Source: Eledone cirrhosa
Lineage: Eukaryota
Length of the DNA stretch: 64,000 bases
Reading direction: 5' to 3'
Assembly (NCBI GenBank): GCA_964016885.1
Contig: OZ024742.1
Span: 40,052,001 to 40,116,000 of the forward strand
In this document: in pieces, positions 3,098 through 53,463 of the stretch
Layout: the number at the start of each line of letters is the position of its first letter
How positions within the stretch are numbered: position 1 is the first letter of the stretch
Translations under genes and position numbers: made by a program
Notes under the pieces: generated by a model
What the model was told of the DNA's origin: nothing
Database searches by the model: none
The model's input: only the letters and a program-made list of their open reading frames with translations

Positions 3098-3302
3098 GGA
3101 GAAAGTATGAACCCGACGGCAGAGCTCAAACCGTTTCGACGGCTATTTCTGGACTAAACCCTTTAGTCCAGAAATAGGTCGAAACGGCTTGAGCTCTGCC
3201 GTCGGGGTCATACTTTCTCCTATTACCCACTCTACTACCCTAAGTATTGAGTACTCTGGTGCGTTATGGTCCATCTAGTTCCTTACCACAACTCCTTCGT
3301 TA
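3098..3302 (+). mobile_element. Fold-back short element carrying the 3' half of a hammerhead (CCGTCGAAACGGC family, copy 1)
   Basis: Inverted repeat about 3098-3222 centred on GGACTAAA-CCC-TTTAGTCC, then a unique tail; homologous to 6803-7010, 25062-25257 and 53268-53463. Confidence 0.75.
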
Positions 3303-3456
3303 TATGTATATATTAAAGAGTTAAACAAGATTCAATGAGTATATCAAAGAATGAGTTTTACAGTAGATTGGAAGCACTCTATGGTAAAATAATTTTCCAG
3401 AGTTATTAATATTAAAATACAAATATCAATAAAATAGATGTTCTTTTGATCAATTA

Positions 3457-3511
3457 CATTTTATTATACATATTTCGGATGTACAACAGTACGTCCTCAT
3501 CAGACAAAATA
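3457..3511 (-). ncRNA. Minimal type I hammerhead ribozyme
   Basis: Minus strand reads UAUUUUGU CUGAUGA GGAcGUAC uguu GUACaUCC GAAA UAUGUA UA^AUAAAAUG; stems I and II pair and the core is canonical. Confidence 0.85.
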
Positions 3512-5658
3512 TAATGATACATGACATACCCTGAGATGTTAAATGGTTAAGATTTAATCAAGGTAGTGATTAACCTAAGAGAAAGTTTAACATTCATACC
3601 CTAATAATGAGAAAATGCGAAAACGTAATAAATTCAATAGAGAATGTGTGAGTAAGAAAAACGTTGCTTAATGTAATAGTTATAGAGATTTTAAAATGTA
3701 TGAAACTACAATTTATCAGGGAAAGCGGTCAATGAGAACCGCTGAGATAGTATATATATAGAGAGGGAAGATAAGTGGTAATATATGTAGGAGATTTTCC
3801 GAAAGATAAACGGTTAAGTTTGAAAATATTTAATTTATGCTATTTTAGGGTGAAGAATCAAGATTTTAGGGTTTTTTTTTTAAATTGCAGGTTATTTATT
3901 AGTTTTGTAAATTCAATAAGTGTTTTAACATTTCTAAACTTCGGAATTTTATGAGGATAACTTTTAAAGGTGAATTATAACTTAAAAAGTGAATTATTCT
4001 CTAGTTGCCTCCACAAAGCTACGTCCACATTCTTAGCCTCCCACAAAAAGAGAGAAAAAAGAAAGAAAAAAAAAGAGAAAGAAACACTTAACCATTAAAA
4101 AGTTGGTTGTGAGACGTATATAATCAACAGGGGAAAACATTAATGGCCTTTAATATTGCATTATCTTATAATCTATCTATAGAAGAAATAACGCTTGAAT
4201 GAAAAACACTTGTTCAATAACATGCCGGAACATTGATATACATAACATAATATTATAATTATTAATTTTGATCCATACCATTATTTCTTTATTTCTCTAT
4301 CTTTATCTTCCTACCTAAGGTTTAAATTTTAGTTTAATATCCAACCCATGCATTTTTATGGAACTTATTTCTAACTGTGAATTTTTCATGTGTTTTTGAT
4401 TATTATTTATTTCGAACTATGAATAATTAATGCATTTACACCCTGTTATATTGGTATATATTTAACTTTGCATGCCTCAATCTATTATATTTTTTTCGTT
4501 ATCATTTACCTAAAATATACTGCCTCATTAATAAATATCTATATCATAATCGTTAATTAAATATTTCTAACAATAAGTACTTCATAAGATTTACATACCA
4601 TATGTTGACAATGATTATCTTCGGTAAAGTTTACATTTAGGAAAATATTCAACAGTGTAAACTTTCCTTGCTTTTCTTATATATATGTATTTAACTATAA
4701 CAAGTTTCGAACTTTATTATATAAAATTATAACCGTTATCATTTACCTAAAGTATGCTGTATCAATAATACCTAATTTATATCAATAATACCTAATTTAT
4801 ATCCATATAAACCTCCATGTATCATTTTATACATAATTTTTAGTTAAATTTATTGATTATCATTTATTTTGAACTATGAATAATCAATGCATTTACACCC
4901 TTTTATATATACGTATATATTTAACTTTAGCATGCCTCAATCTATTATTTTATTTTTATTTTCGTTATCATTTACCTAAAATATACAGGCTCATTAATAT
5001 ATATATAAATATATATATATATATATATATATATATATATATATGTATATATACATAATAGTTATTTAAATATTTCTAACAATAAGTACTTCATAAGATT
5101 TACATACTATATATGTTGACAATGAATATCTCCGGTAAAGTTTACATTTAGAAAAATATTGGACAGTGTAAACTTTCCTTTCCGCTGGCCAGCTAAATCC
5201 TTTCAAAGTTATCCTCATAAAATTCCGAAGTTTAGAAATGTTAAAACACTTATTGAATTTACAAAACTAATAAATAACCTGCAATTTAAAAAAAAAAACC
5301 CTAAAATCTTGATTCTTCACCCTAAAATAGCATAAATTAAATATTTTCAAACTTAACCGTTTATCTTTCGGAAAATCTCCTACATATATTACCACTTATC
5401 TTCCCTCTCTATATATATACTATCTCAGCGGCTCTCATTGACCGCTTTCCCTGATAAATTGTAGTTTCATACATTTTAAAATCTCTATAACTGTTACATT
5501 AAGCAACGTTTTTCCTACTCACACATTCTCTATTGAATTTATTACGTTTTCGCATTTTCTCATTATTAGGGTATAAATGTTAAACTTTCTCTTAGGTTAA
5601 TCACTACCTTGATTAAATCTTAACCATTTAACATCTCAGGGTATGTCATGTATCATTA

Positions 5659-5713
5659 TATTTTGTCTAATGAGGACGTACTGTTGTACATCTGAAATAT
5701 GTATAATAAAATG
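5659..5713 (+). ncRNA. Hammerhead, inverted copy with core mutation (CUAAUGA)
   Basis: Same sequence as 3457-3511 but with G5A, so likely inactive. Confidence 0.7.
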
Positions 5714-6059
5714 GAATTGATCAAAAGAACATCTATTTTATTAATATTTGTATTTTAATATAATTATATATATATATATATATATATATATACATATATG
5801 AGTGTGTGTGTGTATATACGTATATACTTGGGATAGTGTGCTGTCGAAACGGCAAGAGCTCAGCCGTCCGGCCCTGACTACTACTATATATACACACACA
5901 CACACACACACACACACACACACACACACACACACACACACACACACACACACACACACACACACACACAAATATATATATATATATATGCTTGGTGGTC
6001 ATCGATCGATCCAGTTCGTTTGTAAACCAGCATAACATGAAAAAATTATATATTTTCTA

Positions 6060-6141
6060 TATTTGTTGTCTGAGGAGGACATGTTTTGCTTCATGTTATA
6101 CATAAAACTTTGCATCTTCGAAATATATATATAATGAAATA
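6060..6141 (+). ncRNA. Minimal hammerhead with long stem II loop
   Basis: UUGU CUGAGGA GGAcAUG...CAUcUUC GAAA UAUAUAUA UA^AUGAAAUA; same family as 3457 and 31436. Confidence 0.65.
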
Positions 6142-6615
6142 AATAGGAATAATATAAAGTGTATATCTTTCATTTATTACCAATATATATATATATATAT
6201 ATATATATATATATATATATATATATATATATATATATGAAATATTTCCGTAGGAAGGGTAAAGGAAAGGAGAGTGGTCTATGTATATATATATATATAT
6301 ATATATGTGTGTGTGTGTGTGTATAATGAAATAAATAGAGATGATATTTATTTCAATATATATATACGTATATTACAATTTATATATATATTGTAATATG
6401 TCCAATAAATTTTATTCGTCGCAACACTGATTCTCCGTTTCTTATGTGATATATATATATATACATATATATATATATATATATATATATATATATATAA
6501 TATAATTTCTAATTTTTACTGGACCGGCAATTGCTCTGTATAATCAGTTCCTGATTATTACTGGAATTCTATAAGAATTCAGCTTCGATAAGTCTCGGAA
6601 GAAGCGGAGGGATAA

Positions 6616-51340: not shown

Positions 51341-51412
51341 CAGGGTGTCCCCACAGCATTCTAATAAATATTGCCTGTACAATGTGTGTATACCTTTTTG
51401 GGGGACACTCTG
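51341..51412. mobile_element. Tiny Tc1/mariner-type MITE
   Basis: TIRs CAGGGTGTCCCC / GGGGACACTCTG in a TA context. Confidence 0.55.
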
Positions 51413-51534
51413 TGTATATATATATATATATATATATATATATATATGTAAAAGGTAAACAGAAATAACAACACAATCGGTACAGTATATGGAAGGTATA
51501 TATTAGGTTAACGCTTGATATAGCAGGAAGAGGG

Positions 51535-51570
51535 TCTTAACGTTTCGGACGCTAGTCCTTCATCAGAAGA
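51535..51570 (-). ncRNA. Ultra-minimal hammerhead in short element 51448-51575
   Basis: UCUU CUGAUGA aGGAC uagc GUCC GAAAC GUU^AAGA; stems I and II perfect; ACGU palindrome with no stem III loop. Confidence 0.8.
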
Positions 51571-52824
51571 AAAAGTATATATATATATATATACTGGTTA
51601 TCACTTATTTTTTATCATTTATTTTGTTTTGACCTGTTTAGATTGATTTGGTATTTGGCTTGGGTGGTTAATTCTTTCTTGGCCACCTTTTCTGTTTTGT
51701 ATGTCTTAACACATTGTTTAGCTCTGGTTTTAAACTATTGAGCACTTTGCCAGTATCATTTCTGATTTTTACGTTTCGCTTTGCTTTTCCTGCCCGCCGA
51801 AAATGCGATTCTCGTTGAATCTTTATTTATATATTTATATATATGTATATATATATAACAAGAGAGAGGTGGGAGGACCCAGTGGTCTTGAACTGTTTTG
51901 AGGGCATATGGAAAACGCTGACTTTTTCAGGAGGTAGAGGTATGTCATATGTCACTTTGCTTGCTTTTGGATAAATTTCTTGGCCAAGGAGACGAAATCC
52001 TTTGTGACATATTGTTGCTGGACTTCTTTTTGCATTAGACCTTGTTCATTTTCAAAATGTTCTTATTGAAAGTAATGTCTGTCAATCTGCAAAACTGTGT
52101 TTTTGTAAATATTATTACCTTGGAGTCACATGCCGATGGGTTGGCAGAATTGATAAACCGCCAGATAAAATGTCTTGCGACATTTGTTCTAGCGTCTTTA
52201 CGTTCAAACCTAGCCGAGGTCAACTTTGCCTTTCATCTTTCTGAGGGCGATAAAATAAACTAGACAAATACTGCGTGTCTTGAAACTAAATTAGAAACCA
52301 TTTTTGTCTTTTATTTTGTAATATTTTATTAGATGATTTCGTTTAAAAATAGTTTAAAGTCGTCCGAATCTTAGGGGTTCATCAGGCATGAGCTTATTCG
52401 TGGTTCATTGATTTCAACAACAGAGAGCAGATATCACCTCGTTGGACAGAGAGCCAATTCGTTGCAGGGCTAACACTCAGCTGAGTTGACTGGAACAACG
52501 TAAAATGAACTGTTTTCCTCAAGAACACAGCATGCCGCTTGGTCCAGGAACCGAACCTACAACATTAAGATAACAAACGAAACTTCAGATTTTTCGTTTA
52601 GCTTTGATTATTTCATCATGGAATTTCATGTCATGCTAAAAAAATGTCAGCCGGGCTTTTGCTTTCGTTTGTTTAAACTTCATAAAGGTTTCCTTCTATT
52701 ACAGTTTATTCGTATTAGAACCAGTTATTGTGTCTGCGTGTGTGTGTGTGACAGCTCACACCTATGCAGGTTTAGCTGGCCTCATCCTAGGTATATCTCG
52801 CTGGAGGTGTCTTGGGTAATTTAA

Positions 52825-52992
52825 TGATAGGGACCCCAGTTCTATCACCTCATTTCTACAGCTGAGTAAACTGGAGCAACGTGAGATAAAGTGTCTTGCT
52901 CAAGGAAAAAACACATCACCTGGTCCGAGAATTGAACTCACAACCTTTCGATTGCAAGCCCAATGCTCTAACCACTAAGCCATGCGCCTTCA
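52825..52992 (-). mobile_element. tRNA-derived SINE (family B)
   Basis: Minus strand GGCGCATGGCTTAGTGGTTAGAGC...GAGTTCAATTCTC...CTTGAGCAAGACACTT. Confidence 0.8.
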
Positions 52993-53267
52993 CAGAACCA
53001 GTTATTATCACTGAGTCACAAAAGCTTTCACTTCTATCAACAGAAAAGTCATTTATTTCCCATTTTAATTGCTTTTCTTTCGCTTGTTCTCGATGTAAGT
53101 ATTACAACTTTTCTTTGAGTGGCAGTTGCCACTACTTCTCATCGATATTTTGTATCAAATGCAAGCCAAATAAAAAAATGTCTTCTTCTTCTTCTTCTTC
53201 TTCTTCTTCTTTCTCTCTCTCTCTCTCTATATATATATATTTATATGTAATATATATATATGTATAT

Positions 53268-53463
53268 GGAAAAGGTTCAGGACCCCGACGGCAGAGCTCA
53301 AGCCGTTTCGACGGTTATTTCAGGACAGAAATAGCCGTCGAAACGGCTTGAGCTCTGCCGTCAGGGTCCTGAACCTTTTCCTATCACCCACTCTACTACC
53401 CAAAGTATCGAGTACTCTGGTGCGTTATGGTCCACCTGGTTCCTTGCCACACTTCCTTCGTTA
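53268..53463 (+). mobile_element. Fold-back half-hammerhead element (CCGTCGAAACGGC family, copy 4)
   Basis: Same architecture as 3098, 6803 and 25062. Confidence 0.75.

What the first reader, a model, noticed from the sequence alone, without database searches (positions are those of the whole stretch)
3098..53463. Four independent insertions fold back inside hammerhead stem II, erasing CUGAUGA
Seen: copies at 3098, 6803, 25062 and 53268 carry a hammerhead 3' half (consensus CCGUC GAAA CGGC..GCCG UC^GGGGUC) plus tail. Where CUGAUGA should be there is an inverted copy of that half. Each symmetry centre falls in the same GACGGCTA.TTCTGGACT...AG hairpin, with different loop remnants, and the arm sequences differ between copies. 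Within a copy, variant positions are mirrored on both arms (TATGA/TCATA, TAGGA/TCCTA, TTCAGGA/TCCTGAA), so each inversion arose per copy or subfamily. Inference: nascent cDNA snaps back at the stem II hairpin and self-primes, so ribozyme structure would set the site of Penelope-type 5' inversion.
Basis: partly seen in the sequence, partly recalled or inferred. Interest (0 to 1): 0.75.

Follow-up and report, generated by a model that had tools for sequence, protein, structure and literature searches.

The report
Twin-primed Penelope stubs, not snap-backs
The four hairpins are real, 200-base stubs of a very abundant Penelope-like jumping gene; they are likely built from two separate copying events joined head to head at the predicted start of the element's RNA, rather than by one copy folding back on its ribozyme, which would explain how this class makes its mirror-image ends.

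Summary
The four palindromes are real and belong to a family with at least 12,477 short palindromic loci. They are the hammerhead-bearing end of a 3.6-kb Penelope-like element with Hydra-clade protein motifs. Full copies exist, but their core is UUGANAA or CUGAGAA, not CUGAUGA. Snap-back fits poorly. 136 of 141 short pairs have one tail-bearing and one tail-less arm. Either arm can be longer (12:12:1 in long pairs, by up to about 3 kb). At least 6 insertions have non-overlapping arms, and 7 join arms of two unrelated families. Best reading: both target strands prime separate cDNAs from two internal start sites, and the cDNAs are end-joined. The pile-up of arm ends likely marks an RNA 5' end: 17 of 17 second-pass copies read through it, and long arms pair with long arms (7 of 7). 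No RNA data were available. The architecture is known and self-priming is the published guess. This scan reached the same twin-priming reading earlier on other DNA of this genome.

The parts
3095..3158 (-). Copy 1, tail-less arm (ends at CCTAT in (TA)n; reaches 15 nt upstream of the GCCGTCGAAAC anchor)
3159..3161 (.). Copy 1, 3 non-templated bases at the joint
3162..3301 (+). Copy 1, tail-bearing arm; predicted cleavage site after 3203; tail 3224-3301
6803..6944 (-). Copy 2, tail-bearing arm (reaches -15)
6945..6957 (.). Copy 2, 13-nt insertion at the joint that repeats neighbouring arm sequence
6958..7010 (+). Copy 2, tail-less arm with an 11-nt deletion in stem III
25062..25123 (-). Copy 3, tail-less arm; reaches -13, further than its tail-bearing partner
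25124..25256 (+). Copy 3, tail-bearing arm; predicted cleavage site after 25158; tail 25179-25256
53268..53326 (-). Copy 4, tail-less arm; reaches -11, further than its partner
53327..53462 (+). Copy 4, tail-bearing arm (reaches -7/-8); predicted cleavage site after 53362; tail 53385-53462
5840..5886 (+).

Best explanation
Each palindrome is one insertion of a Penelope-like retrotransposon into (TA)n, made of one tail-bearing and one tail-less arm that were likely reverse-transcribed separately from the two cut target strands and then joined head to head, with the joint likely marking the 5' end of the element's RNA rather than ribozyme stem II. Shown: element, ORF, two fixed outer ends (CCTAT and CCTTCGT, 80 nt apart), one-tail rule, free arm lengths, sharp upstream edge. 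Inferred: the protein cuts both strands and starts one cDNA at each of two internal start sites, usually on the same RNA. On an mRNA that starts inside the terminal repeat, about 41 nt upstream of the cleavage site (A of T(C/T)AGT), both cDNAs run off after about 60 and 140 nt, are trimmed, and are end-joined with 0-4 nt overlap or short insertions. That RNA would lack the 5' half of the ribozyme, so the core is never copied. Long insertions would come from read-through, tandem or circular RNAs.
For: One tail in 136 of 141 short pairs and 57 of 57 neutral pairs (one is probably two neighbours). Tail arm longer 19, equal 13, shorter 22 of 54 short pairs. Among 25 resolved long one-tail pairs of 33 rows: tail-less longer 12, tail longer 12, equal 1, e.g. 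3364 vs 175 nt (my recount). Six clear insertions with non-overlapping arms among 11 rows; the same kind of joint appears in independent contigs (table 5). One pair joins two subfamilies (L249); 7 loci join an arm to an unrelated family's arm. Arm ends: 97 of 110 at or below -12, 13 at -13 to -16, none beyond. 137 of 158 first-pass arms stop within 21 nt, against 0 of 17 second-pass copies (Fisher p 2e-13). 7 of 7 long arms with a found partner have a partner that also passes the spot. PMC11167929 (main text read): purified anole PLE protein cuts and extends both strands and starts at two internal sites flanking the tail.
Against: No RNA 5' end was measured. The promoter signs are weak: a 5-6 nt initiator-like motif, and a TATA-like stretch at -29 to -31 that overlaps stem II. 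An extra G at the edge (cap signature) is inconclusive: 16 of 30 vs 30 of 122 in partly pattern-selected loci, 4 of 6 in neutral loci, and G 45, C 47, A 8 in the first 100 rows. The mode of arm ends is -11, and 13 of 110 go past -12. No full-length copy ends at the predicted start (0 of 17). Second-pass copies are pre-selected for processivity. No partner was found for 6 long arms, and L320 pairs a short arm with a long one. Five of 141 short pairs break the one-tail rule. Cross-family hybrids are rare (4 exact hits) and could be later deletions.
Confidence: 0.63

Rival explanations
1. Two separate cDNAs as above, but the pile-up is an early stall of the reverse transcriptase in the small hairpin that caps stem II, not an RNA 5' end.
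For: Arm ends fall in the 3' strand of a predicted 7-bp hairpin. Ends are spread over -5 to -16 rather than on one base.
Against: The hairpin is weak and poorly kept (81% of cells paired), while stronger stems II and III are read through. 17 of 17 second-pass copies pass it. Passing is shared by both arms of an insertion (7 of 7), which independent stalls at 87% per arm do not predict.
Confidence: 0.17
2. One reading: one strand folds back and self-primes; the ends are then trimmed so that only one keeps the tail.
For: Arms are of the same subfamily in 85 of 90 pairs. Some centres are perfect small palindromes. Three of 141 short pairs have two tails. PMC3846280 infers self-priming from such junctions (passages).
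Against: The tail-less arm is the longer in about half of pairs. Non-overlapping arms, two-subfamily and two-family hybrids. The supposed stem II is not native. It survives only if a full palindrome is cut afterwards at exactly two fixed sites.
Confidence: 0.1
3. The short form is a non-autonomous palindromic element copied whole, with its centre remodelled later by cruciform breakage and repair.
For: Some centres recur (up to 3 of 54). The short form is very abundant.
Against: 48 distinct centres in 54. The same one-tail architecture holds for arms of 0.1-3.4 kb. Many subfamilies each have their own long masters. Central deletions of a longer palindrome would not give a sharp upstream edge in both arms.
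Confidence: 0.07

Closest known systems
Hydra clade of Penelope-like elements (Craig et al. 2021, PMC8557442; section 11 and passages read)
   Same: C-terminal GIY-YIG-type nuclease after the RT, DKT, CxCX5C linker, no CCHH, CxH, (TA)n targets, hammerhead in the terminal repeat.
   Different: RWR for RWK; 3.6 kb rather than under 3 kb; core is U3-A8 or C3.A8, not canonical; tail 80 nt rather than 30-40; far higher copy number of stubs.
Typical EN+ PLE insertion: inverted 5'-truncated pLTR plus one-sided tail (PMC8557442, PMC3846280; passages read)
   Same: Head-to-head arms, tail on one side only, palindromes at the joint.
   Different: Here most insertions are 200-bp stubs with a fixed upstream edge. 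The arm geometry argues against the self-priming proposed in PMC3846280.
Poseidon PAc in vitro (Frangieh et al. 2024, PMC11167929; parts 1-2 of 4 read, whole text searched)
   Same: Two internal start sites flanking the tail, priming on both strands, AT-rich targets, ribozyme cleavage not needed for insertion.
   Different: The paper does not discuss inverted copies ('inverted' occurs once, for a primer block). Different clade.
L1 twin priming (recalled, not read)
   Same: Both target strands prime cDNAs that are joined by microhomology, giving an inversion.
   Different: In L1 the second primer anneals at variable internal sites and the segments do not overlap. Here both starts are fixed and the arms usually overlap.
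PLE hammerheads with U3-A8 core (Cervera and de la Pena 2014, PMC4209133; parts 1-2 of 4 read)
   Same: Type I fold, palindromic loop 3, U3-A8 covariant, motif pairs on opposite strands.
   Different: Here helix III is long (5-6 bp) and stem II carries a ~35-nt insert.

Membership tests
EN+ Penelope-like element | Single ORF with RT followed by GIY-YIG endonuclease | tested here: met
   777-codon frame in L134 with YRDDG and a C-terminal AYIGLT nuclease motif, read by eye. Pfam and PDB gave no hit; 2,051 homologues, none informatively named in the 120 listed.
EN+ Penelope-like element | Terminal repeat overlapping the ORF start, partial tandems | tested here: met
   The tail runs in frame into the ORF; 17 of 31 ORF-start rows carry an upstream repeat.
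EN+ Penelope-like element | Inverted 5'-truncated copy and tail on one side | tested here: met
   136 of 141 short pairs; 29 of 33 long-pair rows scored one-tail or duplicates thereof, 2 two-tail.
EN+ Penelope-like element | Target-site duplication | not tested
   Insertions lie in (TA)n, where duplications cannot be read.
Hydra clade | DKT, CxCX5C linker, no CCHH, CxH | tested here: met
   SDKTG, CYCPDGSLC, CKH against PMC8557442 section 11.
Hydra clade | RWK motif; CxxC near the nuclease end | tested here: inconclusive
   RWR in place of RWK; CxxC not seen in this copy.
Hydra clade | Length generally under 3 kb | tested here: not met
   About 3.6 kb.
Hydra clade | Phylogenetic placement | not tested
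   No reference Hydra proteins were obtained.
Type I hammerhead ribozyme | Three helices around the core, G10.1-C11.1, GAAA, UH | tested here: met
   In full copies, 91.5% of cells paired in 8 copies; constrained fold within 0.8-7.7 kcal of the minimum. No significant covariation (185 of 500 shuffles). No Rfam hammerhead among listed rows.
Type I hammerhead ribozyme | CUGANGA core | tested here: not met
   TTGANAA 5,282 hits; CTGANNA 1,853 hits, with CTGAGGA in 1 and CTGATGA in 0 of the first 100. U3-A8 is a described covariant (PMC4209133).
Type I hammerhead ribozyme | Self-cleavage | not testable with these tools
   Needs an in vitro assay; the window's stubs lack the 5' half of the core.
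MITE | Fixed palindromic master, terminal inverted repeats | tested here: not met
   48 distinct centres in 54; tail outside the repeat; RT-encoding parent.

The most novel reading that the evidence does not exclude
Penelope-like elements integrate by obligate double-ended priming: one cDNA from each of two fixed start sites, on one RNA. Because the start sites lie near the mRNA's 5' end and the promoter sits inside the ribozyme, ordinary mRNA yields only 200-bp 'strong-stop' palindromes, while full-length copies need read-through or circular RNA. This would replace self-priming as the source of inverted PLE ends and explain why tandem structure is required.
Probability: 0.45. Interest if true: 0.72.

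Novelty: new member of a known kind. Interest (0 to 1): 0.5.

Why it matters
How Penelope-like elements make their tandem and inverted ends is described as undefined (PMC8557442). More than 12,000 short joints in one genome give a direct test set that separates self-priming from double priming, and the existing in vitro system can test the result. The stubs also scatter tens of thousands of near-perfect hairpins through the genome.

Tried and rejected
Master with CTGANGA-GACGGCTA: absent. Rfam: no hammerhead among the 150 of 258 rows shown for the window or the 72 rows for four master loci. Pfam and PDB searches of the ORF: blank. RNA: no RNA holder listed, which is no evidence either way. Cap-derived G: inconclusive. 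Downstream promoter element: none by eye. A 3' splice site at TTTAG was considered; no constant upstream exon is seen in the joints. Assembly artefact: unlikely, as flanks differ, centres vary and independent contigs hold the family and such joints. Arm extents of 19-21 are artefacts of loose matching; strict matching is. L407's apparent partner (86% identity, part of another palindrome) was dropped from the long-arm count. Literature searches for a twin-priming model of PLE ends listed none by title and abstract; subscription papers are not covered and no supplements were read, where such a model might be drawn.
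Full report
Observation. The four copies are as described: a 114-130 nt palindrome plus an 80-nt tail in (TA)n. The window lies in a 3.0-Gb genome. An exact 24-mer of the arm has 52,348 hits and the reversed control 0; an exact short-palindrome pattern marks 12,477 loci. Positions below count upstream from the G of GCCGTCGAAAC (the anchor); the predicted cleavage site is 29 nt downstream of it.

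Parent element. The predicted master CTGANGA-GACGGCTA does not exist (1 hit, 1 control). A wider pattern found non-inverted copies. They read ACCCC, core, G-NT-CGGCTA, a 35-nt insert, TAGCCG-T-C, GAAA. The core is TTGANAA (5,282 exact hits) or CTGANNA (1,853 hits; CTGAGGA in 1 and CTGATGA in 0 of the first 100). U3-A8 is a described covariant (PMC4209133, parts 1-2 of 4 read). The three helices are kept (91.5% of cells paired in 8 copies) without significant covariation. Upstream lies a 3.6-kb unit with a 777-codon frame bearing RWR, DKT, YRDDG, CxCX5C, AYIG and CKH, and no CCHH. These match the Hydra clade of Penelope-like elements (PMC8557442 section 11). Pfam and PDB searches were blank, so the assignment rests on motifs read by eye. 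The tail runs in frame into the ORF, as in other PLEs.

The real stem II 3' strand is intact in both arms, and the joints lie just upstream of it.

Test of snap-back. If one cDNA starts at the tail, folds back and copies itself, the tail-bearing arm must contain the other arm. I sampled 530 kb of arbitrary blocks, the window, and the first 100 exact hits on C1: 159 arms, 57 head-to-head pairs. All 57 had one tail (one pair is probably two neighbours). Over all loci held, 136 of 141 short pairs had one tail, 3 had two and 2 none. The tail arm was longer in 19, equal in 13 and shorter in 22 of 54 short pairs, including window copies 25062 and 53268. Of 33 long-pair rows, chosen because both arms carry the core, 25 one-tail pairs were resolved: tail-less longer 12, tail longer 12, equal 1, with differences up to about 3.2 kb. 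Two had two tails and 6 were unresolved (my recount; the script's raw tally was 14, 13, 4, 2). In 6 clear cases among 11 rows the tail arm stops inside the tail and shares nothing with the other arm. Such joints also stand in independent contigs. Arms share a subfamily in 85 of 90 pairs against 24% by chance, but one pair differs at 3 diagnostic sites. Seven pattern-selected loci join one arm of this family to one arm of the unrelated family seen at window 54196-54724, five of them with no TA spacer (4 exact hits genome-wide). Simple snap-back cannot give these. The published self-priming idea (PMC3846280, passages read) survives only with later cutting at two exact sites.

Mechanism. The two outer ends, CCTAT and CCTTCGT, are fixed. 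In vitro, the anole PLE protein cuts and extends both target strands and starts at two internal sites that flank the tail (PMC11167929, main text read); that paper does not discuss inverted copies. I infer one cDNA per strand, one from each site, usually on one RNA. Joints show 0-4 nt overlap in 31 of 55 pairs and insertions in 24, several repeating nearby arm sequence, as expected of microhomology-mediated end joining (recalled).

Why the joints cluster. Under strict matching, 97 of 110 arms in short pairs end at or below -12, 13 at -13 to -16, and none beyond; 21 of 158 arms are long. A stall fixed by local structure should also stop enzymes that reach the spot after a full 3.6-kb pass; 17 of 17 such copies read on for 78 nt or more (p 2e-13), though these are pre-selected for processivity. 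Passing is shared within an insertion: 7 of 7 long arms with a found partner have a partner past -16; 6 had no partner found, and L320 is a counter-example. This points to a property of the template, most simply a 5' end. The edge coincides with T(C/T)AGT (A at -12), with a TATA-like stretch 29-31 nt upstream; the initiator consensus is recalled, and internal PLE promoters are described in PMC2377424 and PMC3846280 (passages read). A cap-derived G is suggestive but inconclusive. No RNA run was listed. No full-length copy ends at the edge, so long copies must come from other RNAs. This step is inferred at about 60%.

Verdict. The element and its architecture are a new member of a known kind. 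The arm statistics favour double priming over the published self-priming, which I did not find in print in eight searches (open-access only, no supplements read). Earlier unreviewed notes of this scan reached the same reading on other DNA of this genome; I stated my reading before seeing them, and they are not independent support.

Noticed in passing
window 54196-54724: Palindrome (220-nt arms, 98%) of an unrelated family with an asymmetric, partly duplicated centre. Arms of this family are joined to arms of the studied family in L032, L047, L055, L065, L073, L083, L088.
   Followed up: partly
window 26327-26708: Near-perfect palindrome (189-nt arms, 99%) with CTGATGA..GAAA on each arm; likely a head-to-head stub of another hammerhead-bearing family.
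   Followed up: no
window 5840-5886: Divergent single tail-less arm of a related subfamily.
   Followed up: partly
window 374-1226: Inverted repeat, 182-nt arms, 93%, 489 nt apart.
   Followed up: no
window 58420-58490 (-): tRNA-like match above the Rfam gathering score (49.7 bits).
   Followed up: no
masters, e.g. L092-L121, L272-L301: A large subfamily (about 1,850 exact hits) has CUGAGAA, a C3.A8 mismatch predicted to impair cleavage, yet spread widely.
   Followed up: partly
L003:1000-1720; L258:3950-4550: Three near-identical stubs in direct tandem, separated by (TA)n; likely local duplication.
   Followed up: no
L124, L127, L134:296-700, L137: Fragments of other related RT-GIY-YIG families lie next to or inside copies; several such families share the (TA)n niche.
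   Followed up: no
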